Of a DNA stretch of 64,000 nucleotides, positions 2,728 to 58,328 are shown one piece after another. The stretch comes from Paraspadella gotoi. Lineage: Eukaryota > Animalia > Chaetognatha. The notes under the pieces are model-generated. The model was given only the letters and a program-made list of their open reading frames with translations, was not told the DNA's origin and searched no databases. Location: assembly GCA_051294375.1 (NCBI GenBank), contig CM119269.1, forward strand, positions 15,573,918 through 15,637,917, given 5' to 3'. The translations under genes and the position numbers were made by a program. Within the stretch, counting starts at the first letter, position 1; every line of letters starts with the position of its first letter.

Positions 2728-8956
<6,229 letters not shown>

Positions 8957-15100: not shown

Positions 15101-15531
15101 AGGCAGGAAATCATGCGTTGGTAAAAAGTCCGCGCAGAACTCAAGAAAGAACTGTTCGATGCCCTTTTATTTTCGCCACGCCCACCGGCCGAACTGGCCG
15201 TCTACGACTTGTCTTTAGACTCGTTGACGTCATTCTTCCGCGTCACCCTTTGACACGTCAATACCGCTCGTATGTCACTAGAAAAGCCGGCAAAAATACG
15301 TCTCGACCGTGTTCCGCCGTGACGTCACTTTTGTTTGTAAATTTACTGCATCGACTACGCTTTCGCCTCCTTCGCGATTAGCGTGCTAATTAACGCAGCC
15401 CACGCTAGAAGCAACGTCACATCTTCTTGCTTCCGGAGACGTACAATTTTGGCCGCCGCTCATCCAGACTCTGTTGAAGGGCGTTTCCACGTCGGCGTCG
15501 TAGGCGCCTGGAGAGAGAGACAGAGAAGAGA

Positions 15532-15562
<31 letters not shown>

Positions 15563-15568
15563 CAGAGA

Positions 15569-15612
<44 letters not shown>

Positions 15613-18600: not shown

Positions 18601-19839
18601 ACTTTCTTATTTGTTATTTTTTTTAAGGGAATTTCGGATAAAAGATTAGATAATATAACAATTTTTTTAAGTATATGAATTTACTGCTAAATTTCAAAAA
18701 AAAAAACTTTTTTAAAAAGTTGCCTGCGCAATATATGGATTATTTTTATTCTTTAAAAGAGCTGTCAAAATTTAGGAAATTTAGGAAAAAAATTATCATA
18801 TCATAATTATATTTTCAAATGATGATTAACAAGTATTTGCTAATTGACAAAACTTTAAAATTTTCAAAAGTTTGAAAATATTTAATGCTGAATTTATAAT
18901 ATATAACTTATTAAAATCAATCAAAAATACTTAAAAGAACTTATTATAAGATCAAGACAGAAACTGGCATTGCAATAGAGTAAACGGTTTCAACAGTTCG
19001 TTATTGCAGATAAAAAGATAGACTAATTGACGTGAAAAAAAAAAGTTATTTTGCCCTTTACGTAATTTAGTTAGCGTAAATGGGTCGAGGGGGGGAGACA
19101 AATTCACGAAACCTTTTTTCGCCCAGGGTTTTTTTTTTATGTTCTCTTTTTATTTTTTGAGAAAGTAAAGTGAATTTCGTGAATTTAAGAGGCAAGAGTG
19201 AGGATGAGGAGAGGAGGATGAGAAAAGAGGGATTTAAGAATAAGAGGAAGAGGAGTTTATCGGCAAGTTGATCATTACGAGGCTCGAGCAAAGCTGAAAA
19301 AACTGAAAAAGAAATAACTCTTTATTCTAATTCTGATAATTCTGAACAATAGTGGCTTTTAAAAACTGTTGACAAATTTTATACTCGAAGGCTTCCAAAA
19401 TCAATTAATTTATTAATTTTTAAGCTGTGTAAATCCGCCAACGCGAAGCGAGAAGTAGTATTTTTAAACGTAAGAAAAATAAAGAATAGATGGTAGACGC
19501 TCGAGTGTACACAGAGCAGGATCGATGTAACGAGGTGTTATTGTTCACAACCGATAAATCCATCGTTGGCGTGGCTAATTTCAATTCATTCCAAAAAAAG
19601 TACGAATGTCCAGAGTATCTAGAAGAATATATCCCCACACCTTCTAAAAAAATCGAGAACTATGTACCCTCCGAGCTGAGAGGATCTCTTTCGCCGTATC
19701 GAAAACAATTTTTAAGAAGAGAACAAAAAAGGGAGTGTTGTTTTTGTTTGTGTGTTTTTTTCGCAGAAAAAAAATGTTGACGTCTGACGGAAAATGAAAA
19801 CCCCGGAATGGCAAAATAAAGAAAAGTCTTCTGCGATCG

Positions 19840-19874
<35 letters not shown>

Positions 19875-20237
19875 CGACGAGAGAGACGAGAGAGAGAGAG
19901 AGAGGAGAGAGAGAGAAGAGAGAGAGAGACAGAGAGAGAGAGAGGGGCTATTTTTTTTCTTTTTCTTTTTCTTATTTCTTAGATATTCTTCTCTATCTCT
20001 TTATTATTATATTATTTGTTTCTGTTTTGATCGTTGAATGTCCGTCCACCAAGATTCCCTTTCCACTTCCAGTCCGTCCCTGTTCCAAATGGACGTTCGA
20101 TTTCCGAAATTAACTTCATATTTTCCGACACGAGTATTTGAATCGCAGCACGAACGCCACCGGAAGTTCCCATTAGCGACGGCGATTTGCGTCGGCGATT
20201 CGTCGGCGGTCCCATTGGTCGCCACGGAACTTTCGGT

Positions 20238-20268
<31 letters not shown>

Positions 20269-23200
20269 TCTCTCCGGCGTTATCCAATCCTCCCCCGACA
20301 AATTTCTGGTTGTGAGGAAATGCTCTTGATGGAGAAGCGAGAGAGAGAGGCAAATTGATCGACTTCCGGGGCGTCGTTCGTCTTTTCGGCGTTCGGTTTC
20401 TCGCTGTGAGTCTCTCGAGATTCACAGATGCTCGGACTATAAATTCACGAACCTCCCAGGGAGATTTCTTAGCCGCTTCAACGTTCTATCTTTGTTGTTC
20501 GTTGTCCTTGTTTATTGTCTGATTGAGAACTGTGATTGACAGTTGTTGTCTCCTTGGTCATTTGGTCCGTGTTCATTTTGTTGTGCGTTTTCACTCATTC
20601 AATTTTTTTATTATTTAAACATGATCCTTTTCTGAAACGCCCCTTTTCCTCTTAACGACGCATGAAGGGCTCGAACTAGTCACACTATCTCCCAGCAGGC
20701 AGAGTAGTTCTCACCGCTTTGCCACGGAGTGTCGAATATTTCAAGGTCGTCGTCGATTTATCGTCCTCCTTGTCGGGTGGCACCCCTTGATACGAAACTC
20801 GGGAGGGGCTGTGTTAAACTTGTTTTGTTTTTTGTTCTTTCTTTCTTTCTTTCTTTCTATTCTTCTTTACTTTCTTTCTTTTATTTTTTTATCTGAGTTT
20901 ATATTTCCGTATTTTCTTAAATTTTAAAGAATATTTTTCGCAAAACAAATAATGAAAAATTGAAAATTTGACCTTCGTTCTCTCCATGTTTTGTTTTCTC
21001 AAAATTTGTTTCAAGTTCTTTTGTTTTAATTTGACCCACGGTTTTCCACAGCCACCGTTATAATACAAGAAAATTTTTTTAGAAAACTTTTATTTATCCG
21101 TTTGAGATCAACATTCGCATATTCTTGTGCAAAACTTATCCTTGAAATGAAGATCGGTGATTGTTCAATTCTCGGTCCAATCGCATGACACGGAGAGAGA
21201 GAGAGAGGAGACGAGAGTGAGAGAGACGAGAGAGAGAGAGAAGAGGAGAGAAGAGGAGGAAAAAGAGAGAGAGAGAGAGAGAGAGAGATTGTTATTTTCT
21301 TCTTTTCCTTCGCCCCCCCTTTTCTCCTCCGAAAAACTTGGCACCATTTTTCCTTCTCGTTGTGACGAAAGAGCCGAAACCCGTCGCTGATTGGAAAATG
21401 AAAAGTGGGTCGAATTTCTTGAAACGAGAAAGAAAGAGGAGGTTTGGCGAGAAAATGAAATGTCGGAACGAAGCGAGAGGATGAAGGATATGATTTTAAA
21501 AGCTGCAAAACTAAGAGAAAAAAGTGATCTGAAAAAGATTTTATTCACGTTCTGATAGAGTTGACCTGATTTATGTTGCATTTTATTGATTAATTTGATT
21601 AATTTGGTCACTACAATTCTAAACTCTAACCACTTTTTTCTCTTCATCTTGCTTTTCGTTTCTGTCTTTCTTTTACTTTTCTTCTTTTTTTTTTTCATCT
21701 CTCTCTTTCTTTCTCTAGCTTCGATTTCGCGCATCTGCTTCCGAATCTCGGTTCGACCATCGAAACGCGGAATCAAACAGAATCGATTTTGATACTGGAA
21801 TCATTNNNNNNNNNNNNNNNNNNNNNNNNNAAACGAGCAGAGAAAAAGAAAGAGAGAGAGAAAAAAAAAAGAAAGAAAAGTAAAGAAAGACAGAAACGAA
21901 AAGCAAAGATGAGAGAAAAAGTGGTTAAAGTTTAGATTAGTGAACCAAATTAATCAATTAATCAATAAAATCAACAAAATCAGTCAACTCTATCAGAACG
22001 ATCAATAAAATCTTTTTCAGATCACTTTTTTCTCCTTAGTTTTGCCGCTTTTAAAAATCATTCTCATCCTCCCTCGCTTCGTTCCGACATTTCATTTTCT
22101 CGCCAACCTCCTCTTTCTTTCTCGTTTCCAGAATTCGACCCACTTTTCATTTTCCAATCAGCGACGGGTTCGGCTCTTTCCGTCAACAACGAGAAGGAAA
22201 AATGTGCCAAAGTTTTTCGGAGGGAGAAAGGGGGGGGCTAATTTTTAGTTCCTTTGACAAAAACAACATTTCTTTTTTTTTGTCAAAAATTGAAAAAACA
22301 AACAAAAAATTCCGGACAAACGAGGAGAGAGAGAGAGAGAGAGAGAGGAGAGACGAAGGAGAGAGAAGATGAGAGAGAGAGTGAGAGAGAGAGAGAGGAA
22401 GAGAGAGAGAGAGAGAGAGGAGAGGCGAGAGAACGGAGAGAGAGACGAGAAAGAGAAATAAAAAACACATTTGCACTACCTCAAGAAAAAATGGGCGACG
22501 TTTGGCCAGAAAATAATCGAGACATAATCGCGGTACGTGGAGGGCAATTAAATAAAAATTTCTTTCCGCCCCTTTTCTTTTACAACCCCCTACACGACGT
22601 TTATAAAGAATCTAAGCCATGCGAGGGCAAAGCGTTTTTGTGTACTCTTATAATTCGACTCAAAAATATTGACGTTTTTTAAATGGCCGATGAAGAAAGA
22701 AAATTAACTCTTAAAAAACATTTGGAATCTGGCTCGGTTTAACGCATTGAATTTCCCACTGATTTAAATATTATGTTTCGAAGCGATTTGAAAAATTGTA
22801 AACGTTACAAAAAATTTCGACTTCCATATTTCGCTTAAAAAAATACTAGTATGAAAACACATAGTTCGTAAAAAGTATTCAAATCAAATTTATTAAAGAT
22901 TATTGCAGAGATAAAAAAAAACAAAAATGTTACAAACCCGACACCATTTTTAAAAAAAGTTAATCGAATAAGTGTTAAATACAATATTTTAACAGAATGT
23001 AGTTTTTAAGATAATTTTAAAAAAATATTTTTGCGAGCCCGAAGAGAAGGGGAAGGGCAGGTGGGGAAGGCAGGAAATCATGCGTTGGTAAAAAGTCCGC
23101 GCAGAACTCAAGAAAGAACTGTTCGATGCCCTTTTATTTTCGCCACGCCCACCGGCCGAACTGGCCGTCTACGACTTGTCTTTAGACTCGTTGACGTCAT

Positions 23201-23498
23201 TCTTCCGCGTCACCCTTTGACACGTCAATACCGCTCGTATGTCACTAGAAAAGCCGGCAAAAATACGTCTCGACCGTGTTCCGCCGTGACGTCACTTTTG
23301 TTTGTAAATTTACTGCATCGACTACGCTTTCGCCTCCTTCGCGATTAGCGTGCTAATTAACGCAGCCCACGCTAGAAGCAACGTCACATCTTCTTGCTTC
23401 CGGAGACGTACAATTTTGGCCGCCGCTCATCCAGACTCTGTTGAAGGGCGTTTCCACGTCGGCGTCGTAGGCGCCTGGAGAGAGAGACAGAGAAGAGA

Positions 23499-23529
<31 letters not shown>

Positions 23530-23535
23530 CAGAGA

Positions 23536-23579
<44 letters not shown>

Positions 23580-26500
23580 CTTTATGAATTCCTTGAGCCT
23601 TTATTGCTTTCGACGACTGAGACACTAATGGGAAATTTACGTACTCTCTCTTTCAAAAAAAAAATAAAATTATTTTTTTTTTTATGCTTCAATTTTAATG
23701 CGTACGAGAAAATGCGGGCGAAGAAAAAAGGAAAAAGCGACACCGGGGTGACATTTTTACTTCTGGCGTCACGAAGCGTTAAAGAAAAAAAAAAAAAGAT
23801 TTCGAGAGGCATAATGTTGACGCGGGAGGTTCCGCGGACAAGTATTCTTTCATCTTATTACAAATGAGATCAAATTACATTAGAACGAGGCTAGTCTAAT
23901 AAATTCAAATTGATACAAAGATTAAAAATTAAACTCATATATAAAATCAAGAGAAAACGCTTCAAAAGTAAAATTAAGATGGGCCATGTTGAGTCCGATT
24001 AGCACTCTTTTTCCACTCAGCCAACGCCCTTTACCTATACATATACGAGACGCCGGGCCCCGGCGTCATCCCGCGCCGCCGTCCAATCCGTCGTCCGCGA
24101 ACTGGAAACGGGTCGAGGGGCGTGTCGGGATTTGACGCCTGAGTCGGCGACATTGTAACCGTTTTGAGTCCTGAAATGTGATGAAAAGACTGAGGATAGG
24201 AAGTATACGTTATTATTAAGCATTTACAAAAACTAACGAAAATCCCTTTTTTTTCACCGAATTGAGACCAGGAAAACCCCACCCTCTCTTAAACCAAGCA
24301 TGCTTCCCTCAAATTGTTGCAAAGAACCCTCTGAAAAATTCATTACGCATCCTCTCCCCCCCCCAACCGAATCCACACGCGGTGGGTCACCCACCGGAAT
24401 TGTTGTTGTTTCTCGTCCGCTACGGAGACGGAGCTTGGCCAGATTTGGCCTCCGGTTTGACGCCGACGCAACATGGACGACATGACGACGACGCCTGGAT
24501 GACGCGACGATGGAACGACGACGCGAGCGAGGCGGGATCGCGATGTCGATGTAACATCTTGGCAACGACGTCCTTGGAAAATAGTTAGTTAATTGTTAAA
24601 TTTATTTATTTGGTGTATTTTATCTTCTTATTATAGATATTTTAATCGATTCATTTTGATTCATTCATTTATTTATTAGTAATGGATTTCTTTATCTTTC
24701 ATTAAGGACATTTACTTCTATATTTATCTTTTAATTCATTCATTCTGTTCAGCGTCGTTGGATCATCATCGTTTTTGTCGTGAATTGAGTTCACTACATT
24801 TCTGACATTCTTTTCGTTCAGACATTCCGATATTTAAATCTCATAAATTTATATCTATTCAAACATATTCAGTTTTATTCAGTCGTCCAAAATAATGACA
24901 GAAGTTGACTGAACAAAATATGTCATTCCCAAATCCGACTCACCGATCCAATTGTAGAACACTCGCAAAACGGGACGGTTCCGAAACTCGGTTCACGTTC
25001 GTGTCGATGGAAGAGGTTTTTGATTTTTGGCAAACAGATGCCGTCGTTGAGGACAAAAGTGACGCGAGAAGGGTTCCGTGTTGGCGCAGCGGATCGGGTC
25101 GTTGACGCACTTGATGGCGGAAAAGGAGAGGAGTTGGGTGATAGAGGAGATTACGAACCAGTTTCGACTCTCGATGTTTTGGTTTTTGTTCAGTGAATTT
25201 TACGAATCAGAATAGTGTTAAATGAAACAACGCACGGGGGAAAACAGCAAAACAAACAAACATTGGAAAAACATAGTCTAATCTATAATTATAAATATTA
25301 TATACATCTTGACAGCAATATAGAAAATGAGAGGAAAAAAGACAGCGAAAAATAATGACTGAGCCCAAGATCGACCGTTCCGCCCTCCACCTTTCTCCGT
25401 CTCGAATCTCCGACATATTGGCGCTTGCGGCGGATGGGCCGCTGACTCTTCGACAGGCGGACGCGCCGCCCATGAGTCCCAGCAGTCGCGCAGAGCAGCA
25501 AGAAGAAAGGACGCAGAATTTCGGCAGCGGTTGTCGATCTTTTCGTCGGTAGGCCCGGCGCTCGGACCACGCTGAGATCTCGAGTTGTAGCCGCGGCGCG
25601 GCCGTCGCGAGGGGAGTCGGCGGCACCTCCCGGTTCGCGACGAGGAAGAACTGACCCGGATGTAACTGACCTTTCGAAAACGAACGCGGCCTGTAACTGA
25701 CCCATTGTAATCACACTTCGATGGAAGTCTACGACGTTCCTCAGCGGACGGTTGACAATTTTTGGGAGATCCAAGCGCATTGGAACGCGAATAACGCTGG
25801 GGCATCGACCGGTGGCAGTTTCTGCAGCGGCGGAAGGCGTTCGCTGCGGCGTCAGCGCTAGGCCTCAGGTAGAGTCTGGTGTCGCCCGAATGGACGGAAT
25901 AAATAAAGTCCAAGTCTTTGGAGATTGGCATTCGTCTTTGATTGCCACCGCGCCTGCGCCATTAGAGCGCGGGCGTTTGTCGTCGTCGTCATGCAGAGCG
26001 CACGACCTCCTTGATAAAACCCTTGCGGCGCAAGGATCCTGACGTTTCAACACTCCTTCCTTGCCATGGCGATCGCTAGTTGGATATTTTCCTCGCGTCC
26101 AAAGTCGTCAATCTTCGAATGCCTCTTTGCAGTTGTGTTTTTTTATTACTGGCGATTTTTTTGCGCTGACGTGTTTACTGGTTTTAATTTGTTGTTTCCG
26201 CTGTTCATCTGTTTTTATATTTTTTCGGCCCTAAAAATGTTTATCGAAATTATAAGTACCGCGCAGCGACGACAAAACAGAGGGGGAAAAAAAGTGAAAA
26301 TCGGCGAAAATGTTGTGAAAAGAACGAGGTGACGTATGGCGAGCCAGAGTTTTCGCAAATAATTACCATGACGCAAACTTCCTTTTGACCGGGAGAGGAT
26401 CGAAGAGTAAGGCGATGGAAAAGGGATGGAGAGAATGAATGAGGGATGACGACCGAAAAAAAAAGAGGATGGAGAGATGGGCGAGCCCATGCGAGCCGCC

Positions 26501-27806
26501 GGTTCTGGCAACGTTTTGGGGGGGGGAGAGGAATCGAGGCCGAGTTGATGTCGTTTTTCTAATTTGTACTTTCTTATTTGTTATTTTTTTTAAGGGAATT
26601 TCGGATAAAAGATTAGATAATATAACAATTTTTTTAAGTATATGAATTTACTGCTAAATTTCAAAAAAAAAAACTTTTTTAAAAAGTTGCCTGCGCAATA
26701 TATGGATTATTTTTATTCTTTAAAAGAGCTGTCAAAATTTAGGAAATTTAGGAAAAAAATTATCATATCATAATTATATTTTCAAATGATGATTAACAAG
26801 TATTTGCTAATTGACAAAACTTTAAAATTTTCAAAAGTTTGAAAATATTTAATGCTGAATTTATAATATATAACTTATTAAAATCAATCAAAAATACTTA
26901 AAAGAACTTATTATAAGATCAAGACAGAAACTGGCATTGCAATAGAGTAAACGGTTTCAACAGTTCGTTATTGCAGATAAAAAGATAGACTAATTGACGT
27001 GAAAAAAAAAAGTTATTTTGCCCTTTACGTAATTTAGTTAGCGTAAATGGGTCGAGGGGGGGAGACAAATTCACGAAACCTTTTTTCGCCCAGGGTTTTT
27101 TTTTTATGTTCTCTTTTTATTTTTTGAGAAAGTAAAGTGAATTTCGTGAATTTAAGAGGCAAGAGTGAGGATGAGGAGAGGAGGATGAGAAAAGAGGGAT
27201 TTAAGAATAAGAGGAAGAGGAGTTTATCGGCAAGTTGATCATTACGAGGCTCGAGCAAAGCTGAAAAAACTGAAAAAGAAATAACTCTTTATTCTAATTC
27301 TGATAATTCTGAACAATAGTGGCTTTTAAAAACTGTTGACAAATTTTATACTCGAAGGCTTCCAAAATCAATTAATTTATTAATTTTTAAGCTGTGTAAA
27401 TCCGCCAACGCGAAGCGAGAAGTAGTATTTTTAAACGTAAGAAAAATAAAGAATAGATGGTAGACGCTCGAGTGTACACAGAGCAGGATCGATGTAACGA
27501 GGTGTTATTGTTCACAACCGATAAATCCATCGTTGGCGTGGCTAATTTCAATTCATTCCAAAAAAAGTACGAATGTCCAGAGTATCTAGAAGAATATATC
27601 CCCACACCTTCTAAAAAAATCGAGAACTATGTACCCTCCGAGCTGAGAGGATCTCTTTCGCCGTATCGAAAACAATTTTTAAGAAGAGAACAAAAAAGGG
27701 AGTGTTGTTTTTGTTTGTGTGTTTTTTTCGCAGAAAAAAAATGTTGACGTCTGACGGAAAATGAAAACCCCGGAATGGCAAAATAAAGAAAAGTCTTCTG
27801 CGATCG

Positions 27807-27841
<35 letters not shown>

Positions 27842-28204
27842 CGACGAGAGAGACGAGAGAGAGAGAGAGAGGAGAGAGAGAGAAGAGAGAGAGAGACAGA
27901 GAGAGAGAGAGGGGCTATTTTTTTTCTTTTTCTTTTTCTTATTTCTTAGATATTCTTCTCTATCTCTTTATTATTATATTATTTGTTTCTGTTTTGATCG
28001 TTGAATGTCCGTCCACCAAGATTCCCTTTCCACTTCCAGTCCGTCCCTGTTCCAAATGGACGTTCGATTTCCGAAATTAACTTCATATTTTCCGACACGA
28101 GTATTTGAATCGCAGCACGAACGCCACCGGAAGTTCCCATTAGCGACGGCGATTTGCGTCGGCGATTCGTCGGCGGTCCCATTGGTCGCCACGGAACTTT
28201 CGGT

Positions 28205-28235
<31 letters not shown>

Positions 28236-29590
28236 TCTCTCCGGCGTTATCCAATCCTCCCCCGACAAATTTCTGGTTGTGAGGAAATGCTCTTGATGGA
28301 GAAGCGAGAGAGAGAGGCAAATTGATCGACTTCCGGGGCGTCGTTCGTCTTTTCGGCGTTCGGTTTCTCGCTGTGAGTCTCTCGAGATTCACAGATGCTC
28401 GGACTATAAATTCACGAACCTCCCAGGGAGATTTCTTAGCCGCTTCAACGTTCTATCTTTGTTGTTCGTTGTCCTTGTTTATTGTCTGATTGAGAACTGT
28501 GATTGACAGTTGTTGTCTCCTTGGTCATTTGGTCCGTGTTCATTTTGTTGTGCGTTTTCACTCATTCAATTTTTTTATTATTTAAACATGATCCTTTTCT
28601 GAAACGCCCCTTTTCCTCTTAACGACGCATGAAGGGCTCGAACTAGTCACACTATCTCCCAGCAGGCAGAGTAGTTCTCACCGCTTTGCCACGGAGTGTC
28701 GAATATTTCAAGGTCGTCGTCGATTTATCGTCCTCCTTGTCGGGTGGCACCCCTTGATACGAAACTCGGGAGGGGCTGTGTTAAACTTGTTTTGTTTTTT
28801 GTTCTTTCTTTCTTTCTTTCTTTCTATTCTTCTTTACTTTCTTTCTTTTATTTTTTTATCTGAGTTTATATTTCCGTATTTTCTTAAATTTTAAAGAATA
28901 TTTTTCGCAAAACAAATAATGAAAAATTGAAAATTTGACCTTCGTTCTCTCCATGTTTTGTTTTCTCAAAATTTGTTTCAAGTTCTTTTGTTTTAATTTG
29001 ACCCACGGTTTTCCACAGCCACCGTTATAATACAAGAAAATTTTTTTAGAAAACTTTTATTTATCCGTTTGAGATCAACATTCGCATATTCTTGTGCAAA
29101 ACTTATCCTTGAAATGAAGATCGGTGATTGTTCAATTCTCGGTCCAATCGCATGACACGGAGAGAGAGAGAGAGGAGACGAGAGTGAGAGAGACGAGAGA
29201 GAGAGAGAAGAGGAGAGAAGAGGAGGAAAAAGAGAGAGAGAGAGAGAGAGAGAGATTGTTATTTTCTTCTTTTCCTTCGNNNNNNNNNNNNNNNNNNNNN
29301 NNNNCGATTGGACGAGAATTGAACCAATCACCGATCTTCATTTCAAGGATATTTTGCACAGAAATCGAATGTTGATCTCAAACTCGGGATATAAAAGTTT
29401 TCTAAAAAATTTTCTTGTATTAAACGTGGACGTGGAAAACCGGGTCAAATTAAAAACAAAAGAACTTGAAACAAATTTTGAGAAACAAAACAGGAGAGAA
29501 CGAAGGTCAAATTTTCAATTTTTCATTATTTGTTTTGCGAAAAATATTCTTAAAATTTTAAGAAAATACGAAAAAAACAGATAAAAAAAA

Positions 29591-29654
<64 letters not shown>

Positions 29655-30200
29655 ACAAAAAACAAAACAAGTTAACACAGCCCCTCCCGAGTTCGCTATC
29701 AGGGGTCACCCGACAAGGAGGACGATAAATACGACGACGACTTGAAATATTCGAACTCCGTGGCAAAGCGGTGAGACTACTCTGCCTGCTGGGAGATAGT
29801 TGACTAGTTCGAGCCCTTCATGCGTCGTTAAGAGGAAAAGGGGGCGTTTCAGAAAAGGATCAATGTTTAAATAATAAAAAAATTGAATGAGTGAAAACGC
29901 ACAACAAATGACACGGACCAAATGACAAGGATGACAACAACGTCAATCACAGTTCTCAATCAACAATAACAAGGACAACAACAACAAAGATAAGACGTTG
30001 AAGGCGGCTAAGAAATCACCCGTGGGAGGTTTCGTGATTTATAGTCCGAGCATCTGTGAATCTCGAGAGACTCACAGCGAGAAACCGACGCCGAAAGACG
30101 ACGACGCCCGGAAGTCGATCATTTCCTCTCTCTCTCGCTCTCGCTCTCCCTCAAAGAGCATTTCCCCACCAGAAATTTGTCGGGGGAGGATTGATAACGC

Positions 30201-30235
<35 letters not shown>

Positions 30236-33200
30236 NNNNNNNNNNNNNNNNNNNNNNNNNNNNNNNNNNNNNNNNNNNNNNNNNNNNNNNNNNNNNNNNN
30301 NNNNNNNNNNNNNNNNNNNNNNNNNNNNNNNNNNNNNNNNNNNNNNNNNNNNNNNNNNNNNNNNNNNNNNNNNNNNNNNNNNNNNNNNNNNNNNNGGACC
30401 GCCGACGAATCGCCGACGCATCGCCGTCGCTATGGGACTTCCGGTGGCGTTCGTGCTGCGATTCAAATCCTCGTGTCGGAAAAATATGAAGTTAATTTCG
30501 GAATCGACGTCATTTGGAACAGGGACGGACTGGAAAGGGAATCTTGTGGACGGACATTCAACGATCAAAACAGAAACAATAATATAATAATAAGAGATAG
30601 AGACGAATATCTAAGAAAAAGAAAAAGAAACAAGAACACTCAGCCCCTCTCTCTCTCTCTGTCCTCTCTTTCCTCTCTCTCCTCTCTCTCTCTCCTCTCT
30701 CTCTCTCTCTCCTCTCTCTCTGCTCTCTCTCTCTCGATCGCCACGAAGACTTTTCTTTATTTTGCCATTCGGGGTTTTCAATTTTCCGTCATGACGTCAC
30801 ATTTTTTTTCTCGAAAAACACAAAAAATAAAAACAACTCCCTTTTTTGTTCTCATTCTTAAAAAAAATGTTTTCGACGCGAAGAGACCTCTCAGCTCGGA
30901 GGGTACATAGTTTCCGATTTTTTTAGAAGGGTGGGGATATCTCTAGAAAACTCTGACATTCGTACTTTTTTTGGAATGAATTGAAATTAGCCACGCCAAA
31001 CGATGGATGTATTTCGGTTGTTGAACCTAAAACATCTCGATTCGTATCGATCCGTGCTCTGAGATACAACTTCGAGCTGTCAATCCACATTCATTTATTT
31101 TTCTTCGTTAAAAATACTACTTCTCGCTTCGCGTTGGCGGATTTACACAGCTTAAAAATTCATAAATTAATTGATTTTGGACGCCTTCCGAGTATAAAAT
31201 TTAGTCAACAGTTTTAAAAAGCCCTATTGTTCAGAATTATCAAGATAAGAATAAAGAGTTATTTCTTTTTCAGTTTTTTCAGCTTTGCTCGTAGCCTCGT
31301 AATGATCAACTTGCCGATAAACTCCTCTTCCTCTTATTCTTAAATCCTCTTCCTCATCCTCCTCTTCCTCATCCTCCTCTTCCTCTTAAATTCACGAAAT
31401 TCACTTTACTTTCTCAAAAAATAAAAAAGAGAACATAAAAAAAAACCTGGGCGAAAAAAGGTTTTCGTGAATTTGTCTCCCCCCCCTCGACCATTTACGC
31501 TAACTAAATTACGTAAAGGGCAAAATAACTTTTTTTTTTCACGTCAATTAGTCTATCTTTTTTATCTGCAATACGAACTGTTGAAACCGTTTACTCTATG
31601 CAATGCCAGTTTCTGTCTTGCTCTTAAATAAGTTCTTTTAGTATTTTTGATTGAATTTTAATAAGTTATAATTCTAATTCAGATTAAATATTTCAACTTT
31701 TGAAAATTTTAAAGTTTTGTCAATTAGCAAATACTGTTAAAATCATCGTTGAAATATAATTATGATGATAATTTTTTTCTAAATTTCATAATTTTGACAC
31801 TCTTTTAAGATAAAAATAATCCATATCTTGCGCAGGCAACTTTTTAAAAGTTTTTTTTGAAATTTACAGAATACATATACTTAAAAAATGTATATTATCT
31901 AATCTTTTATCCGAAATTCTTAAAAAATAATGAAAATGTAAAATTAGAAAACAACATCAACTCGCCTGGATTCCCCCCTCCCCCCCCCAAACGTTGCCAG
32001 AACCGGCCGGCTCGCATGGGCTTGCCCCCATCTCTCCATCCTCTTTTTTTCGGTCGTCATCCTCTTCACTTCTCTCCATCCCTTTTCCATCCTCTTCCTC
32101 TTCGATCCTCTTCCCGGTCAAAAAGGAGTTGCGTCATGGTATTATTGCGAAAACTCTGGCTCGCCAACGTCACCTCGTTCTTTCACAACATTTTCGCCGA
32201 TTTCACTTTTATCCCCCTCTGTTTTGTCGTCGCTCGCGTTACTTAATTCGATAACAATTTTAGGGCGAAAAATAAAAACAGATGAACGGCGGAAACAACA
32301 AATAAAACCAGTAACACGTCAGCGAAAAAATCGCCAGTAAATAAAAAAACACAACTGCAAAGAGGCATTCGAAGATAGACGACTTTGGACCGAGGAAAAT
32401 ATCCAAACTAGCGATCGCCATGGCAACGAGGAGTGTTGAAACGTCAGGATCCTTGCGCCCAGGGTTTATCAGGAGGTCGTGGCGCTCTGCAATGACGACG
32501 ACGACAACGCCCGCTCTAATGCGCAGGCGCGGTGGCAATCAAAGACGAAAATGCATCTCCAAAGACTTGGACTTTATTTATTCCGTCCATTCGGCCGACA
32601 CAGACTCTACCGAGGCCAGCGCTGACGCCGCAGCGAACGCCTCCGCCGCTGCAGAAACTGCCACCGTCGATGCCCCAGCGTTATTCGCGTTCAATCGCTT
32701 GGATCTCCCAAAAATTGTCAACGTCGCTGAGGACGTCGTAGACTTCCACGAGTGTGATTACAATGGGTCAGTTACAGCCTCGTTCGTTTCGAAAAGGTCA
32801 GTTACATCCGGGTCAGTTCCTTCTCGTCGCGACTCTGGGACGCCGCCGACTCCCCTCGCGACGCCGCGCCGGCGGCTACACTCGAGATCTCAGCGTCGGT
32901 CCGAGCGCCGGCGCCTACCGACGAAAAGATCGACACCGCTGGCGAAATTCTGCGTCTTTCTCTTGCTGCTCTGCGCGACTCTGGGACTCATGGGCGGCGC
33001 GTCCGGCTGCTCGAGAGTCAGCGCCCCTCCGCCGCAGCGGCCAAAGTCGGAGATCGAGACGGAGAAAGGTGAGGGCGGAACGGTCGATCTTGGGCTCAGT
33101 CCATTATTTTCCTGTCTTTTTTCTCTCATTTTCTATATTGCTGTCAGATGTATATAATATTTATAATTTTAGATTAGACTATGTCTTTTCCAATGTTTGT

Positions 33201-35796
33201 TTGTTTTGCTGTTTTTCCCCCGTGCGTTGTTTCATTTAAAACTATTCTGATTCCGTAAAATTCACTGAACAAAAACCAAAACATCGAGAGTCGAAACTGG
33301 TTCCGTAATCTCCTCCATCACCCCAACTCCCCTCCTTTTCCGCCATCAGTGCGTCACGACCCGATCCGCTGCGCCAACACGACCCTCTCGCGTCACTTTT
33401 GTCTCAACGACGGCATCTGTTTCCAAATCAAAACTCTTCACATCGACACGAACGTGACCGAGTTCGGACCTCCGTTTTGCGAGTGTTCCTACAATTGGAT
33501 CGGTGAGTCGGATTGGAATGACATTTTTGTCAGTCAACTTCTGTCATTATTTGGACGACTGAATAAACTGATATGTGAATAAATATAATTTATGAGATAT
33601 TAAATATCGGAATGTCTGAAAGAAAAGAATGTCAGAAATGTAGTGACTCAATTCACGACAAAAACGATTATGATCCAACGACGTTGACAGAATGAATGAA
33701 TTAAAAGATAAATATAGAAATAAATGTCTTAATGAAAGAATAAAGAAATCCATTACTAAATAAATAAATGAATGAATCAATGAATCGATTAAAATATCTA
33801 TAATAAGAATGATAAAATACACAAATAAATATTAACAAATTAACTACTATTTCCAAGGACGTCGTTGCCAAGATCGTTACATCGACATCGCGATCCTCGC
33901 CTCGCTCGGCGTCGTCGTTCCCATCGTCGTCATCGGCGTCGTCGTCATGGTCGTCATGTTGCGTCGGCGTCAACGGAGCAAATCTGGCCAAGGCTCCGTC
34001 TCCGTAGCGACGAGAAACAACAACAATTCCGGTGGGTGACCCACGTGGGATTCGGTTGGGGGGGGGAGAGGATGCGTAATGAATTTTTCAGAGGGTTCTT
34101 TGCAACAATTGAGGGAAGCATGCTTGGTTAAGAGGGGGTTCCTGGTCTCAATTCGGTGAAAAAAGGGATTTTCGTTAGTTTTGTATGCTTTTAATAAATA
34201 ACGTATCTTCTATTCTCAGTCTTTTCATCACATTTCAGGACTCAACGGTTACAATGTCGCCGACTCAGGCGTCAATACCCGACACGCCCCTCGACCCGTT
34301 TCCAGTTCGCGGACGACGGATTGGACGGCGGCGCGGGATGACGCCGGGCGCCGGCGTCTCGAAGAAGGTAAAGGGGCGTGGCTGAGTGGAAAGAGTGCTA
34401 ATCGGACTCAATGGCCCATTTTAATTTTACGTTTGAAGCTTTTTTATATATGAGTTTATTTTTAATCTTTGTATCATTTGAATTTTATTAGACTACCTCG
34501 TTCTATGTAAATTTATCTCATTTGTAATAAGATGAAAGAATACTTGTCGCGACCTCCCTCGTCAACTTATGGCCTCTCGAAAATATCTTTTTTTTTTCTT
34601 TAACGCTTCGTGACGCCAGAGTTAAAAAATGTCACCCGGTCGTCGCTTTTCCCTTTTTCTTCGCCCGCATTTCTCGTACGCATTAAAATTGAAGCATAAA
34701 AAAATAATTATTTTGAGAGAGAGTACGTAAATTTCCCATTAGTGTCTCGTCGTCGAAGCAATAAAGGCTCAAGGAATTCATAAAGCGCCCTCTCTCTCTT
34801 CTCTCGTCTCGTCTCTCTCTCTCTCCTCTCTCTCTCTTCCTCTCTCTCCGTCTCGACTCTCTACATCCGTCTCTCAATCTCTTCTCTCTCTCCAGGCGCC
34901 TACGACGCCGACGTGGAAACGCCCTTCAACAGAGTCTGCGATGAGCCGGCGCCAAAATTGTACGTCTCCGGAAGCAGAGTGTGACGTTGCTTCTAGCGTG
35001 GGCTGCGTTAATTACACGCTAATCGAAGGAGGCGAACGTGCAGTAATTACAAAAGTGACGTCACGCGGCCGGGCGACGTAATTTTTGCGGCTTTTTCTAG
35101 TGACATAACGAGCGTGACGTGTCAAAGGTGACGCGGGAAGAATGACGTCAACGAGTCTAAAGACAAGTCGTAGACGGCCAGTTCGCCGGTGGGCGTGGCG
35201 AAATAAAAGAGCATCGAACGTCTCTTGAGTTCTGCGGACTTCCAACGCATGATTTCTGCCTTCCCCCTACCTGCCCTCCCCTTCCTCTTCGGCCGCAAAT
35301 ATTTTTTTAAATATCTTAAAAACTCATTCTTTAAAATATTGTATTAACTTATTCGATTAACTTTTTTATGTCGTCGTTGTACATTTTTGTTTTTTTTATC
35401 TCTGCAATAATCTTTAAATAAATTTGATTTGAATACTTTTACGACTATGTGTTTTCATACTAGTATTTTTTAAGCGAAATATGGAAGTCGAAATTTTTGT
35501 ACGTTATCATTTTTCAAAATCGCTTCGAAACATAATATTAATCATTGGAAATTCAATCGTTAAACCGAGCCATTCCAATGTTTTTAAGAAGTTATTTCTT
35601 TCTCGGCCATTTTAACGTCAATTTTTGAGTCGATTAAAGTACAAAAACGCTTTGCCTCGCATGGCTTAGATCTTACGTCGTGTAGGGTTGTAAAAGAAGG
35701 GCGGGAGAAATTTATTTATTGCCCACCCGCGATTATGTCTCGATTATTTCCTGGCCAAACTCCATTTTTCTTGAGGTAGTGCAAATTGTTTTTTAT

Positions 35797-35858
<62 letters not shown>

Positions 35859-37782
35859 TGTCGGAATTTTTTGTTTGTTTTTCTTTTTGACAAAAAAAAA
35901 GAAATGTTGTTTGTCAAAGGACGTAAAAATTAGATTCGCGACTCCGAGTAAAGAAATGGAGGGGGAAGAGGAAGAGGATGAGGAATTAGTGAGTATAAGG
36001 ATGGAATGAATAGGAAATAGGAAAGAGTAGGAGAGATTAATAGGAGGAAGTGGGAGAAGATTCTGGAAGAAAAGATGGGGGTGATAAGAATAGGAGAAGA
36101 GAAGATAAGAGAGAAGAGAAGAGAGAAGGAGAAGAGAAGGAGAAGAGAAGGAGAAGAAGAAGAGAGAAGAGAAATAAAAAGTGGGTAAGAAAAAACATAA
36201 AACGATTCAGCACAATCAATGGCTTTTTAAACTCCAGGACATTCACCTCGAAAAAAGGAAAACATTTAAACCTTTTCAGGAAACATTTTTAAAAAGGTCA
36301 AGAGAAAAAAAACGTCCGAAGAAAAATTAAAAAAAAATAAAAATAAAAAGAAGAAAATAATTTGAGCAACGACATCTGGATAGAAAAAAAAATAACGGAA
36401 GTGAAACAAAAATAATTCGATTGGTAAAAAAAATTTGGCGAAGAAAAATCCTTTTGTTGCCAAACGAAGTCTTTTTCTCTTTCTATCTTTCCGACTAAAA
36501 AAGAAAAAAAAACTATTTTATGCGAATAACTTGTCTTTGTCAAAAATATCTGTCGGGCGACAGTAGTTTTGCTTCATTTGAACTTACCTAGATGATGTTC
36601 CCAAGGCCGTCAGCCAAGCCTGAAAGAAAGAGTTGAGAGGAAATTACGTTTTAAACATTGTACTTTCCGGAGTAAATATTTTATAATAATTCTGTGACTC
36701 GGAAGTTTCCATCGTAATCGATAATTGCGCCTTTTATAGCAATAAAAACTGACCTGCAGCATTCCGCTGTAAAATAGGTAAGGGTTCTTCCGTGTGACGA
36801 TGAAGTAAAGCAAAGGAAGAGTGCCGAGTGAGTGGATGGCCAGACCTGCCACTACCGCCGCCATGTAGAGACCCAACTTAAAAAAAAAAAGAGGAAGAAG
36901 TTTGTCGTCGTTGTCGTCGCTAATTATCCCGAAGGTAAGTTTTATGCTTCCTCACCTGAGCGAGCGTGTTCGACAAATCCCCGATCTCCATTAACTTTCC
37001 CATGATCAAGCACATGATGCCGAACGGAGCGTACCTGACATACGGATTCGAAATACATTATAACGGACGAAAGGAAAGGAAAGAGTCAAACCAAGTCGGA
37101 ACGAAATCGTCATTTTAGTGACAAAAAAGTAAATTATCTCAACGACGTCCAAAACACGTCAAAAACTCGTTTCTGTCAATCGTTTGTTTAGTAATTTAGT
37201 TTAGTAATTTAAAAAAAAACGTTAGAAAATTGAGGAAATCGAGTTAACACGGGAGGCATATTTGTACAGATTAAAGATAACAAAAAGCCCTTTGCAGTTA
37301 TCATTACGGTAAATTTACTTATAATTTTAAACAAACAAAAGAATCTATCCGACAAAGCCCTTTCTCCCTTCGCCTGGAGCCAGCGTCTCATCGCAACATA
37401 TTGAAACGTATATGAATGAATTCATACTATTTTTCTTTTATACACAAAAATCGTGCGGTAACTGTCGTCGTGTCACAGTTTTGATAATCCAAAATCCAAA
37501 ATCCTCACCACATGATGATGAACACGAGTCTCATGACGATTTCGTTGAGGACGACGAAAAACTCCACCATGAGTTTTCCCTTTTCCTCCAATTGACCGAT
37601 GATGATGCCGAAGGCGATGCAGAACACGATCAGACCCAGCACGTTCATTCCGTCTGGAGGGAATACATGAGGTTGTTGGGGAAGGGGTTGTTTGAGAGGG
37701 GGCTTATCTGTCTATCTATATTTCTTTCTTTCTTTTTTCTTTCTTTCTTTCTTTTTTCCTTCTTTTTTTTCCCTTTTTTTTC

Positions 37783-37858
<76 letters not shown>

Positions 37859-38975
37859 TGATTACAATTTTTACCTGAACATTATCTCTTTACCTTATCT
37901 TATCTTTCTTTTTTCTCTCTTTCTTTATTCACCTTGATTACAAACTTTAACTGAGCATTTTTCTCCATTTAAAAAAAAAAACATAATGTACGTGAGATAG
38001 CCACAGAGAAAAAAAGAGAGAAAACGAACCCGACCTTTGAAACGCAGCTTGTGCTTTCGTATGGTCGTCACGTTGTCCGGCAATATTGTATCGTTGCCGA
38101 CTTCCACTTCTTCGTAATAAGACTCCGTTTGTTGGAAACAGGCTTGAACGATGTTTTCCGGGAACATGTTCCTTGAGAAAAAGAAAAGGCCGATTTGTGA
38201 CGGAATGATTTTTATTAGAGGGCGACAGGGGTTTTCGGCTCAGGGGCCTTTTCTTGGCTCTCTTTCCCCAGAGGGCTGTAAATATTCCAGTAGTAGACAT
38301 ATATCTTTATATGGGTTTTTTTTTATCACGATTACTCAATGAGTGGCCATGTCTGTTTGTCTGCCCAAGATTGATCTGTTACAAGGGATTATTTGTCAAG
38401 GGATCTTCAAAATATAAAAAAATATTTTAACCGAATATTAAAAAAAAGGCTGACAAAACGCTAAATAAATTTTCGCATGGTAAGAAAACTTGGTAGTGAG
38501 AACTCTTGACATAGACTTTTTTTTTAGTTTCCCTTAATTTTTTTTTGCTACTTTGTTTTTATCTGAATCCCAACAATGGAGCCCCTATCGACAACTCAAA
38601 GAACGATTTAAAAAAAAAAAAAGACAACGAACCTGATAAGGTCGAGAAGGGCGTCCACGGTCGAGACCGTCTTGGTCGAGTGCGGTCCGGGTCCCCCACG
38701 GATGGTGTTCTAAAATTTAGTTTTTATTTTTAAGATAATTATATTTAACTTATCACACGAGGAAAAAGAAAATCGAAATATACCATTTCTGGAAGATTAA
38801 CAATAACCTACCTTGATGGAGGGGTCACCGGGATGGATCGACACAACCATGATGATCCCCACAACCGCCGCCAGCATCGTCGTCCCGAAGTAGTAGCACA
38901 GAGCGCGGGAGCCCATCTTGCCAGAAGACTTGGCGTCCAGTTGGGCCAGACCTGCGAGCGGGAAGTGGGTAGTGG

Positions 38976-39006
<31 letters not shown>

Positions 39007-39241
39007 AAGCAAAGAAAGACCGTGAGAATTCTTGTTTATTTTTTCAATTATCACGAACCGGAAGATCTAAGGCGTCTATCCTCAAATAATCCATCACCAA
39101 CGAATTTCGAATTTGAAAATTTTTGAAAGATTTTTTTCTGGAATCTGTTCTTTCGTTTATTTATTCTTCGGTATAATTTTGGGCCTGTTTACTTTTTCGA
39201 ATATTCCGTTCTTGATAAGGAACAATATTACAAAATTAAGG

Positions 39242-39281
<40 letters not shown>

Positions 39282-40894
39282 AAATGGCTCCTTACCGGCG
39301 ATCATAGAGGATGTGATGAGAGGAATGATAAGCATCTTCAACATTCTCATCAAAATGTCTCCGGGAAACGCAATCATTTGAATCGTGTAGAGATCCGGCT
39401 GAATAAACAAATAAGAAAAGATCCGTCATTGACTTCTCGATCGTTAGACTGTCATTTCTTACTTTTCGTACTCGCTCTTTCAAACCCAATGAATATTATA
39501 TTTTGAATTTCGCTTTTTTTTCAATAGCCTTGGCAAGCGAACCGTATCATCGTCCCATTTACCCACATCTTTCGTGTAAATCTATGTTTTACGCAGTTGT
39601 GATTTTTTTTAATCGAATATAACCGCAAATTTTATCGCTCGTAACCTAAAAGAATTCACGCCTATTTGCATAATAATCAAGAATCAATGACGGAATTCGG
39701 AACTTGAGATTTACTTACGAGAGACTACACTGTATAATCTTGGTCTATTCGATATGAATGCTTCTTTCACTCAAACATTTCTGCGTCTTTTCAATATTTT
39801 TTTTTGGACTTTTTTTTGAAATTCTTACCATTCGATGGGAAAAACCAGTACAAATCTCTATCAAAACAAAGAACGGTTATTCCAAGGTGTTGTGCTGCAT
39901 TAATTTTATTTTAACTGTCTTATCCCTTGTATTTCCGTATATACACGACACGCTCTGCATCGTAATCACGTCTTTTATTCCTTAGAGTTAGTAAGATTTC
40001 TTTAAAAACAAAAGGCGGGCGCGAGTAGTCGCTCAGATTTGAGGTTTTCCTGTTTTATCAAATGAGCAACGAACTATAGGTAAGTTATTAACGATTTCAA
40101 CGAAAACGTAAGTGGGACAGACCGACGGTCAGACATACCGACCGACGGACCGACGGACCGACCGAAAAGGGACTTATAGAGTCGCTCCGCGAGTACTCGC
40201 GACGTGACTAAAAACTAAATGACTCGATCGAATGATTTACATGTAAATATAACCATAAACTTTCATTACTTAAATTTGAAAAGCATTGGTGATGAAAAGT
40301 TATTTTAAACCCAAAACTTTTCGTATCAATGTATGTATAATATGTAATGTAATGAAGAGACAGATACAACCATCATACAAATTATCCGTACATTCAATAA
40401 ACAATTATGACAAGCTATGATGAATTGCATTGGGCTAAGGGTCAAAGTCAAACTCAAACCTCAAACTCAAACTCAAACTCAAACCTCACCTGAGCCAATC
40501 GGCAGAGGAATCCGAGAACGACGCCCAGAACGACGCCCAACACCGTGAGGACGAGAAGGAGGTTTTCCGATTTTCGCATCCATGCTAGAATCTGTTGTTA
40601 GTTAGTTTAGTTAGTTATATTATATCATAAATTAATGATAAATCGATTCGTAACTTCGTTTTTTTTAAAAAAAAAACTATGAAAATCAACCTCCGACAAA
40701 ATTACTAAAATATTTTTTTTAAAACAGAGCAAAATAGGAACTTAACACATCACGTCGATCGTAGTTATCGAAGAAAAAACCTTTATATAAAAGTTGCTTC
40801 CATACTTATTGAAATATAATGATGTAACTACCTTTGATGGAATCGACGAACGATAAGTTGGAATCCGTATCGCGTCTTTTTTGTCGTCCGCCAT
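12151..40894 (-). CDS. SLC1A2: Excitatory amino acid (glutamate) transporter, SLC1 family, EAAT2/GLT-1-like, 13 coding exons
   Basis: Exons: 40894-40832, 40591-40490, 39398-39296, 38951-38812, 38709-38633, 38171-38035, 37653-37509, 37034-36956, 36876-36754, 36619-36588, 13974-13780, 13120-12954, 12337-~12151. All are GT-AG with consistent phases. Motifs: [23 protein letters not shown] (HP1), [10 protein letters not shown] (TM7), SVPSAG (HP2), DRIRT (TM8 Arg for acidic substrates). The last exon has an indel, so the stop is approximate. Orthology to SLC1A2 rests on resemblance only. Confidence 0.95.
13466..13671 (-). mobile_element. Dispersed repeat family B, intact copy, in EAAT intron 11
   Basis: Reverse complement of 3487-3627 joined to 4248-4318. 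Confidence 0.85.
14271..21805 (-). repeat. Inverted, insertion-rich duplicate of 21831-22236 plus 29305-35933 (probable assembly gap-fill)
   Basis: Reverse complement of those segments with many 1-nt insertions; ends at a 25-N gap (21806-21830). Confidence 0.9.
15417..18100 (-). pseudogene. Frameshifted copy of the EGFR-ligand-like gene (probably artefactual)
   Basis: Same five exons as 32420-34984 but disrupted by indels. Confidence 0.5.
22238..29279 (-). repeat. Apparently exact direct duplicate of 14271-21312 (offset 7967)
   Basis: The ORF track repeats identically at +7967; the copy ends at a 25-N gap (29280-29304). Confidence 0.95.
23384..26067 (-). pseudogene. Second frameshifted copy of the EGFR-ligand-like gene (probably artefactual)
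   Basis: Same sequence and same indels as 15417-18100. Confidence 0.45.
32420..34984 (+). CDS. Membrane-anchored EGFR-ligand-like protein (TGF-alpha/Spitz/Keren-like), 397 aa, 5 exons, nested antisense in EAAT intron 10
   Basis: Exons 32420-33068, 33350-33502, 33858-34031, 34239-34367, 34896-34984. All four introns are GT-AG phase 1 and the join has no stops. Features: hydrophobic [20 protein letters not shown] then [13 protein letters not shown]; EGF module [48 protein letters not shown]; [27 protein letters not shown] followed by RRRQR; C-terminus GSRV*. The start codon is less certain. Confidence 0.9.
40013..40215. mobile_element. HINE-like element, uninterrupted copy, in EAAT intron 2
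   Basis: (gacc/gacg)n tract plus the hairpin end ttatagagtcgc...gtgactaaaaac; homologous to 4890-5676. Confidence 0.65.
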
Positions 40895-42729: not shown

Positions 42730-42893
42730 AATTTGCAGGAATAAGTTTGATTTGTTTGTGACAATTATTTGTTTTATTTCAGTTTAGAAACGGACATGTT
42801 TCGGCTTTGAATACAAGCCTTCATCATGTCCGTTTCTAAACTGAAATAAAACAAATCGTTGTCACAAACAAATCAAACTTATTCCTGCAAATT
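42730..42893. repeat. Near-perfect palindrome (~68-bp arms) enclosing a hammerhead core remnant on the minus strand
   Basis: The minus-strand centre reads TGATGA-AGGCTT-gtattca-AAGCC-GAAA-CATGTC. Confidence 0.75.

Positions 42894-58259: not shown

Positions 58260-58328
<69 letters not shown>

What the first reader, a model, noticed from the sequence alone, without database searches (positions are those of the whole stretch)
32420..34984. Hidden EGFR-ligand gene nested antisense inside a glutamate transporter intron
Seen: five GT-AG exons, all phase 1, splice into an uninterrupted 397-aa protein with one juxtamembrane EGF module ending G-R-R-C, a TM helix and a cytoplasmic tail. It lies on the opposite strand within EAAT intron 10, and the ORF track shows only fragments. 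Established: a single juxtamembrane EGF with Arg before the last Cys typifies EGFR ligands, and EGF/TGF-alpha signalling induces GLT-1 in mammalian astrocytes. Inference: the nesting may couple or oppose expression of growth factor and transporter, for example in glia-like cells.
Basis: partly seen in the sequence, partly recalled or inferred. Interest (0 to 1): 0.8.

Follow-up and report, generated by a model that had tools for sequence, protein, structure and literature searches.

The report
Spitz-like growth factor inside transporter intron
A spliced five-exon gene lying backwards inside an intron of a glutamate-transporter gene encodes a likely lipid-anchored, short-range growth factor of the fly Spitz type with an unusually long front leader, and the nesting itself is likely incidental because nothing yet links the two genes' activity.

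Summary
Observation confirmed. Five GT-AG exons with phase-1 introns give 397 aa. One contig of a probable RNA run carries all four junctions; three DNA runs carry none. The gene lies antisense in intron 10 of an EAAT2-like gene. The two inverted copies at 14-29 kb are likely long-read gap-fill artefacts.

That arrangement marks Spitz/Keren/Gurken-type ligands, whose N-terminal Cys is palmitoylated in fly Spitz. Best reading: a Spitz-type EGFR ligand, likely lipid-tethered and short-range. Its oddities are a 173-aa basic leader before the signal, a 19-residue C3-C4 loop, a short stalk, and an intron between C5 and C6 instead of C4 and C5.

Receptor binding, cleavage and lipidation are inferred. 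Coupling to the transporter has no support: the exons do not overlap, and most mammalian nested pairs are uncorrelated. Synteny and co-expression could not be tested. The scan had not noted this elsewhere.

The parts
32130..32419 (+). 5'UTR (minimum extent; the X9 contig runs about 100 nt further left). Holds two short upstream ORFs, 36 aa from 32136 and 7 aa from 32282
32420..33068 (+). Exon 1 coding part (aa 1-216), phase-1 donor
32420..32938 (+). 173-aa Arg/Ser/Ala/Thr-rich leader, predicted mostly unstructured, no homologue found; translation likely but unproven
32939..33007 (+). Internal signal-peptide-like segment aa 174-196; begins with an in-frame CTG, ends in an A-x-G site; confident helix 173-192
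33008..33016 (+). Cys197-Ser-Arg: predicted mature N-terminus and predicted Hhat/Rasp palmitoylation site
   Evidence: comparison by eye; substrate rules
33350..33502 (+). Exon 2: EGF module C1-C5, 19-residue C3-C4 loop, sequons at N226 and N251
33858..34031 (+). Exon 3: end of EGF module (Arg270, C6 at 271), 5-7-residue stalk, TM helix (33884-33961), basic stop-transfer
34239..34367 (+). Exon 4: cytoplasmic tail
34896..34984 (+). Exon 5 coding part to stop.
36588..40894 (-). Host EAAT2-like gene, coding exons 1-10 (exon 10 = 36619-36588)
13975..36587 (-). Host intron 10 as assembled (22.6 kb, inflated; at least about 7.6 kb looks real)
12954..13974 (-). Host coding exons 11 (13974-13780) and 12 (13120-12954)
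14269..21312 (-). Inverted, indel-ridden copy of about 29305-35930; likely raw long-read gap fill, not a gene
22236..29279 (-). Second copy, identical to the first over 7044 nt; likely the same artefact

Best explanation
This is a spliced gene, antisense inside intron 10 of an EAAT2-like glutamate-transporter gene, that encodes a likely Spitz/Keren-type EGFR ligand, likely palmitoylated and so short-range, and its nesting is likely incidental. Shown: exons, splicing, constraint on the exons, one EGF module next to a TM helix, the nested position. Inferred steps: translation starts at Met1; the helix at aa 174-196 acts as an internal signal sequence, leaving the basic 173-aa leader in the cytosol; signal peptidase cuts after Gly196; Hhat/Rasp palmitoylates Cys197; a protease, rhomboid by analogy with Spitz, cuts at the start of the second helix; the released EGF fragment stays held by its lipid and activates EGFR on adjacent cells. 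The most the nesting would impose is polymerase traffic on opposite strands, or shared enhancers.
For: Junctions in a probable RNA contig and in none of 3 DNA runs; exons depleted of variants. 7 of 7 PDB matches to exon 2 and 7 of 8 to the two-sequence profile are ErbB/EGFR ligands, all weak. Pfam EGF E=0.0076 with C6 missing from the query; Atlas hits are EGF clusters at 0.84 or less. An unnamed relative, P0001, keeps 25 of 50 residues, all five Cys, both sequons and the long loop. In the PMC4914847 supplement, 12 of 25 non-flatworm protostome EGF-type sequences clearly show a Cys right after the hydrophobic N-terminal segment, and 3 more do so with atypical N-termini (by eye). Cys-Ser-Arg meets the Hhat rules: Ser allowed second, a basic residue within seven. 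Ten K/R lie in the 25 residues before the helix. Met1 has a strong context, G+C steps from 0.42 to 0.58 there, and an open frame of this length arose in 88 of 5000 simulations. Nesting: N-free sequence 30396-60159 holds exons 1-10 and the EGF gene; both host halves match the same relatives best (85.6-90.9% and 99-100%).
Against: No binding, cleavage or lipidation data, and no signal-peptide predictor was available. The C4-C5 intron of most ErbB ligands is absent. The leader has no codon-usage signal (784 of 2000 shuffles score as high; GC3 0.61 against 0.73) and no homologue. In the 12 clear cases above the signal lies at the very N-terminus. The rhomboid motif at Ala279 means little: 4328 of 5000 shuffles contain one. 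The RNA evidence is one contig from one run whose type is a guess; strand is inferred from GT..AG only.
Confidence: 0.55

Rival explanations
1. Dual-pass, type III NRG1/NRG3-like topology: the first helix is never cut off and remains as an N-terminal anchor, so after a juxtamembrane cut the EGF module signals by contact.
For: A long cytosol-type basic N-terminus, then a helix, an EGF module and a second helix is the dual-pass layout (PMC9118086, passages). EGF-type ligands with two TM regions are reported (PMC4914847). The best weak PDB matches include NRG1.
Against: The helix ends in a small-x-small site directly before Cys-Ser-Arg, as in Spitz-type ligands. No Ig or neuregulin domain was found.
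Confidence: 0.17
2. The leader is not translated: the protein starts at the in-frame CTG (codon 174), giving an ordinary 23-aa signal peptide and a 224-aa Spitz-type precursor; the upstream open frame is 5'UTR or a recent read-in.
For: The CTG sits exactly at the start of a textbook-length signal. The leader shows no codon bias and has no homologue. No run differs from the window at that codon.
Against: The X9 contig is continuous across Met1, which has a strong context; the frame is open while the other two frames have 3 and 4 stops; no indels were seen in it. The CTG has C at -3.
Confidence: 0.13
3. The nesting is functional: ligand and transporter are co-regulated or mutually exclusive through shared enhancers or transcriptional interference, forming a growth-factor/glutamate-uptake loop.
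For: EGF/TGF-alpha raise GLT-1 in astrocytes (PMC6406900). The two genes are transcribed toward each other, with the ligand's inferred 3' end 1.2 kb from host exon 10. A minority of nested pairs are co-expressed or exclusive.
Against: No expression or synteny data. No exon overlap. Over a tenth of mammalian genes host another, and most pairs are uncorrelated. Intron 10 is the host's largest intron, the usual place for nested genes.
Confidence: 0.15
4. A single-EGF membrane protein that is not an EGFR agonist (adhesion, decoy or antagonist).
For: C4-C5 intron absent; two conserved sequons inside the module and a 19-residue loop could hinder receptor binding; all database matches are weak.
Against: Arg before C6, juxtamembrane position and the N-terminal Cys motif together; fly Spitz, Keren and Gurken also lack the C4-C5 intron; loops of 16-17 residues occur in LIN-3 and gastrotrich ligands (by eye).
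Confidence: 0.1
5. The nesting or its orientation is an assembly error, or the - strand copies are real (inversion haplotype or duplicates).
For: Intron 10 holds three N gaps and two inverted copies; host exon 13 looks frameshifted. The stretch 35930-36588 was not checked with independent reads, nor the host exon 10-11 junction in RNA.
Against: The copies are identical to each other over 7044 nt yet have different left neighbours. Against the + copy they show 439 insertions, 108 deletions and 97 substitutions, in exons as in introns, and they break the reading frame. The gene is N-free contiguous with host exons 1-10, and no exon 11 lies between.
Confidence: 0.07

Closest known systems
Drosophila Spitz, Keren, Gurken and protostome EGF-type ligands (PMC4914847 supplement; PMC8061759)
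   Same: Signal-like segment followed directly by Cys with a nearby basic residue; Pro-rich stalk; one EGF module with Arg before C6; TM helix; cytoplasmic tail. Spitz is among the weak PDB matches.
   Different: 173-aa leader before the signal (only the Tribolium Keren entry, possibly a gene-model error, has about 110 residues before its Cys); C3-C4 loop 19 against 12 in Spitz; stalk after C6 5-7 residues against about 20; intron between C5 and C6. Fly spitz and Keren are not nested in an Eaat gene (recalled, not checked).
Dual-pass neuregulins, NRG1 type III and NRG3 (PMC9118086)
   Same: Cytosol-type N-terminus, first hydrophobic helix, one EGF module, second helix; predicted to stay membrane-held after processing.
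   Different: Here the first helix looks cleavable and is followed by the Spitz-type Cys; no neuregulin domain and no C4-C5 intron.
Host/nested gene pairs (bioRxiv 10.1101/2023.05.02.539096)
   Same: A complete gene in the host's largest intron, opposite strand.
   Different: I found no paper on an EGF ligand nested in a glutamate transporter (0 papers with all four terms).
EAAT2/GLT-1 (SLC1A2) for the host gene
   Same: Pfam SDF; exon 11 is 86-92% identical to named EAAT2 proteins, against 69-77% to entries named EAAT3, EAAT5-like or SLC1A6.
   Different: Whole protein 89.5-93% identical to unnamed relatives and at most 66% to any named protein retrieved. No tree was built.

Membership tests
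EGF-type EGFR ligands (Barberan 2016 criteria) | Full-length protein with only one EGF motif | tested here: met
   One six-Cys module, spacing 9-5-19-1-8; Pfam finds EGF only in exon 2
EGF-type EGFR ligands (Barberan 2016 criteria) | No Ig domain; zero to two TM regions | tested here: met
   No Ig hit in any exon; two hydrophobic helices
ErbB ligands (Stein and Staros 2006) | EGF module close to a TM region | tested here: met
   C6 at 271, TM from about 277
ErbB ligands (Stein and Staros 2006) | Arg before the sixth Cys | tested here: met
   Arg270
ErbB ligands (Stein and Staros 2006) | Splice site between C4 and C5 | tested here: not met
   The intron lies between C5 and C6, as the X9 contig shows. 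Fly Spitz, Keren and Gurken also lack the site, so I do not file it under this strict definition but it does not exclude ligand function.
Spitz/Keren/Gurken type | Cys as first residue after signal cleavage, with Hhat-compatible neighbours | tested here: inconclusive
   A-x-G site then Cys-Ser-Arg fits the rules; cleavage is judged by eye, no predictor or experiment
Spitz/Keren/Gurken type | Signal peptide at the very N-terminus | tested here: not met
   The signal-like segment starts at aa 174 if Met1 is used; hence a variant. It would be met if the CTG is the start.
Spitz/Keren/Gurken type | Rhomboid cleavage at the TM start | tested here: inconclusive
   Motif at Ala279, but 4328 of 5000 shuffles also have one
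Spitz/Keren/Gurken type | Palmitoylation; binding and activation of EGFR | not testable with these tools
   No receptor sequence of this animal in hand; bench assays needed
Dual-pass neuregulins (NRG1 type III, NRG3) | Uncleaved N-terminal TM anchor | not testable with these tools
   Helix present; whether it is cut is unknown
NRG-type ligands | Ig I-set domain or neuregulin domain | tested here: not met
   No such Pfam hit at E<=1 in the five exons
Nested gene | Whole gene inside one host intron | tested here: met
   Between host exons 10 and 11, N-free to exon 10; the host junction itself was not seen in RNA
Functionally coupled host/nested pair | Correlated or exclusive expression; conserved nesting | not testable with these tools
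   No genome held; no orthologous locus found; no stranded or cell-level RNA

The most novel reading that the evidence does not exclude
A Spitz-type lipid-anchored EGFR ligand made with a 196-residue cleavable leader whose basic cytosolic part is a retained product with its own role, encoded in a conserved nest inside the GLT-1-like transporter gene so that the two are regulated together as an invertebrate neuron-glia growth-factor/glutamate-uptake module.
Probability: 0.1. Interest if true: 0.65.

Novelty: new variant of a known kind. Interest (0 to 1): 0.33.

Why it matters
It adds a transcript-supported EGFR-ligand candidate that plain ORF calling misses, in an animal lineage with no named close relatives in the protein collections. 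It suggests that the palmitoylation Cys known from fly Spitz is widespread in protostome ligands, which is directly testable. The very long leader before a Spitz-type signal would be an unusual way to route or time a growth factor. The nesting would matter only if co-regulation or conservation is shown. The locus is also a clear warning that gap-filled assemblies can fake inverted and tandem gene copies.

Tried and rejected
No whole genome is held for this window, so receptor, Hhat and rhomboid genes and paralogues were not sought. Word-index protein searches: exon 2 found nothing among proteins of 89-2000 aa; exon 1 gave 0 of 1142 candidates at E<=10 among 118-378 aa. The full HMMER scan gave 2 hits; P0002 is a Cys-rich repeat protein, judged chance. 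The metagenome scan gave 2 loci of 134 candidates, both chance matches without the Cys pattern, so synteny is untested. The Atlas gave no usable hit for exon 1. No run on record as RNA was listed; X9 is a guess. The exon 2 model lacks C6 and is low-confidence (pLDDT 55); its Foldseek search was uninformative (0 matches at E<=0.001). Exon 3 matched only generic TM stretches. No complex was predicted because no receptor was in hand. Paralogous or pseudogene copies on the - strand were rejected on the error spectrum. My first topology reading (type III NRG1-like) was demoted after the supplement comparison. Low-depth X9 contigs in intron 4 (depth 2-3) could be pre-mRNA of either gene or DNA and were not used. 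Reads were examined only over 32130-34770. Literature searches (0 papers; 4 papers, 3 listed, none relevant by title and abstract start) found no report of this arrangement; the library lacks most subscription papers.
Full report
Observation. With boundaries 32420-33068, 33350-33502, 33858-34031, 34239-34367 and 34896-34984, all four introns are GT-AG and phase 1 and the product is 397 aa. An in-frame stop precedes Met1. Of 9 runs that hold the region I laid 4 on 32130-34770. One 1990-nt contig of X9 skips introns 1-3 exactly, and its loose end after exon 4 is the start of exon 5. X1, X4 and X5 show none of these joints. X9 is only guessed to be RNA and contigs give no strand, but precise GT..AG skips absent from DNA runs are what a spliced + strand transcript gives. 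The contig covers exon 1 without a break from 32130, so Met1 and the whole first exon are in the message. Variants among the runs avoid the exons: 5 substitutions and 0 indels in 1105 nt, against 24 and 10 in 1246 intronic nt (p=6.7e-6). Two exonic changes alter a residue, and one of the five probably comes from repeat-derived contigs.

Host and nesting. Twelve - strand exons from 40894 to 12954 splice in frame to a 454-aa SDF-family transporter. Exon 11 is closest to named EAAT2 proteins. Exons 1-10 and exons 11-12 both match the same unnamed relatives best (85.6-90.9% and 99-100%), so they are very likely one gene. Sequence from 30396 to 60159 has no N; it holds exons 1-10 and the EGF gene and no exon 11. 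The EGF gene must therefore lie in intron 10 unless that contig is chimeric or the host is truncated. I did not see the host exon 10-11 junction in RNA and did not check 35930-36588 with independent reads.

Assembly artefact. 14269-21312 and 22236-29279 are identical over 7044 nt and are inverted copies of about 29305-35930. Against the + copy they carry 439 extra bases, 108 missing bases and 97 substitutions, at 9 differences per 100 in exons and 11-13 elsewhere. That insertion-heavy pattern and the 25-N spacers are, from my recall, typical of raw long reads placed by gap-filling software. The copies are frameshifted and are not paralogues. They do show one molecule spanning 29305-35930. The real intron is at least about 7.6 kb.

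The protein. Exon 2 alone scores Pfam EGF at E=0.0076, below the curated cut-off, with C6 missing from the query. All 7 PDB matches, each weak, are neuregulin-1 or Spitz; a two-sequence profile gives ErbB ligands in 7 of 8 rows. A scan of 1.84 billion representatives found one real relative, P0001, from an unnamed genomic fragment; it shares 25 of 50 residues, the 19-residue C3-C4 loop and both sequons, and its similarity spans just the exon. Arg270 precedes C6, as in verified ligands (PMC1618406). Ile276 sits five residues after C6, where ligands have a receptor-contacting hydrophobic residue (recalled; Spitz and Keren show Ile there). The intron falls between C5 and C6, so the C4-C5 criterion of that paper fails, as it does for fly Spitz, Keren and Gurken.

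A second hydrophobic stretch, aa 174-196, is the only confident helix in a single-sequence model of exon 1. It follows 10 basic residues in 25 and ends in an A-x-G site before Cys-Ser-Arg and a Pro-rich stalk. In the supplement of PMC4914847, 12 of 25 non-flatworm protostome EGF-type sequences clearly have a Cys directly after their signal-like segment and 3 more do with atypical N-termini (by eye). Spitz is palmitoylated on this Cys by Rasp, which limits its spread; Keren and Gurken are thought to be; no vertebrate EGFR ligand has it (PMC8061759). Ser at position two and a basic residue within seven meet the Hhat rules given there. This moved my reading from type III neuregulin-like (PMC9118086) to Spitz-type.

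The leader. Evidence that aa 1-173 are translated is mixed. For: strong Met1 context, a G+C step from 0.42 to 0.58, an open frame reached in 88 of 5000 simulations, stops in the other two frames, no indels. Against: no codon-usage signal on a small training set (784 of 2000 shuffles as high), no homologue, two upstream ORFs, and an in-frame CTG exactly where a 23-aa signal peptide would begin. A recent capture of 5'UTR would explain both sets; that is inference.

Mechanism. Most likely the helix works as an internal signal, is cut after Gly196, and Cys197 is palmitoylated. A cut at the start of the second helix, by rhomboid in analogy with Spitz, would then leave a lipid-held EGF fragment acting on neighbouring cells. 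The rhomboid motif (PMC2941825) is present at Ala279 but uninformative. The stalk of 5-7 residues seems short for metalloprotease shedding (recalled). Every step after splicing is inferred.

Coupling. EGF and TGF-alpha raise GLT-1 in astrocytes (PMC6406900), but by signalling, not by gene position. The transcripts share no exon; the ligand's inferred 3' end is 1.2 kb from host exon 10. In mammals over a tenth of genes host another, usually in the largest intron, and most pairs show no expression relationship. No orthologous locus could be fetched. I put functional coupling at about 0.15.

Papers seen. PMC4914847: parts 1-2 of 6 of the text, passages, supplement passages and supplement parts 11-12 of 15; its domain figure is an image and was not seen. 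PMC1618406: abstract and parts 1-2 of 3 of the Ligands section. PMC9118086, PMC8061759, PMC2941825, PMC6406900 and bioRxiv 10.1101/2023.05.02.539096: passages only; the preprint's supplements were not seen. Searches found no report of this arrangement.

Organism and verdict. The animal is unidentified. An earlier unchecked note on this genome suggests an arrow worm; I did not test it. The gene is real and nested, and is best read as a new variant of the Spitz/Keren-type ligands with an odd leader, loop, stalk and intron. The headline idea of regulatory coupling is unsupported. Interest 0.33.

Noticed in passing
window 3100-8950 (- strand): A multi-exon neuronal-type nicotinic acetylcholine receptor subunit gene directly downstream of the transporter on the same strand (Pfam Neur_chan_LBD and Neur_chan_memb; best PDB matches beta-2, beta-4, alpha-4). 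Its first exon looks frameshifted near 8840, possibly a sequence error.
   Followed up: partly
window 172-2166 (+ strand): A 664-codon open frame with several hydrophobic stretches and no credible Pfam or PDB match.
   Followed up: partly
window about 12180-12340 (- strand): Transporter exon 13 reads out of frame against the relatives' C-termini; likely uncorrected long-read sequence.
   Followed up: partly
window 21313-22235: Two arms about 90% alike in inverted orientation either side of a 25-N gap; probably sequence that truly belongs left of 29305, misplaced by gap filling.
   Followed up: partly
window 56729-57957 and 62762-64000; 58250-63800: A 1.2-kb direct repeat (96%) and several inverted 200-550-nt repeats around a 468-N gap; repeat family or further gap-fill copies.
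   Followed up: no
window about 42755-42890: A long near-perfect inverted repeat (arms of about 60-70 nt) in an upstream intron of the transporter gene, seen by eye; may be a MITE-like hairpin.
   Followed up: no
window about 43190-43700 (- strand): A likely non-coding first exon of the transporter gene ending at a GTAAG donor near 43188, seen by eye.
   Followed up: no
window 34032-34238: Intron 3 of the EGF gene differs from the window at 9 substitutions and several indels in run X1, more than neighbouring introns in that run; a divergent haplotype or local error.
   Followed up: no
PMC4914847 supplement, parts 11-12: The Cys right after the signal segment recurs in priapulid, brachiopod, bryozoan, nemertean, annelid, gastrotrich and nematode ligands (by eye), suggesting that Spitz-type palmitoylation is ancestral in protostomes; not remarked in the parts of the paper that I read.
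   Followed up: partly
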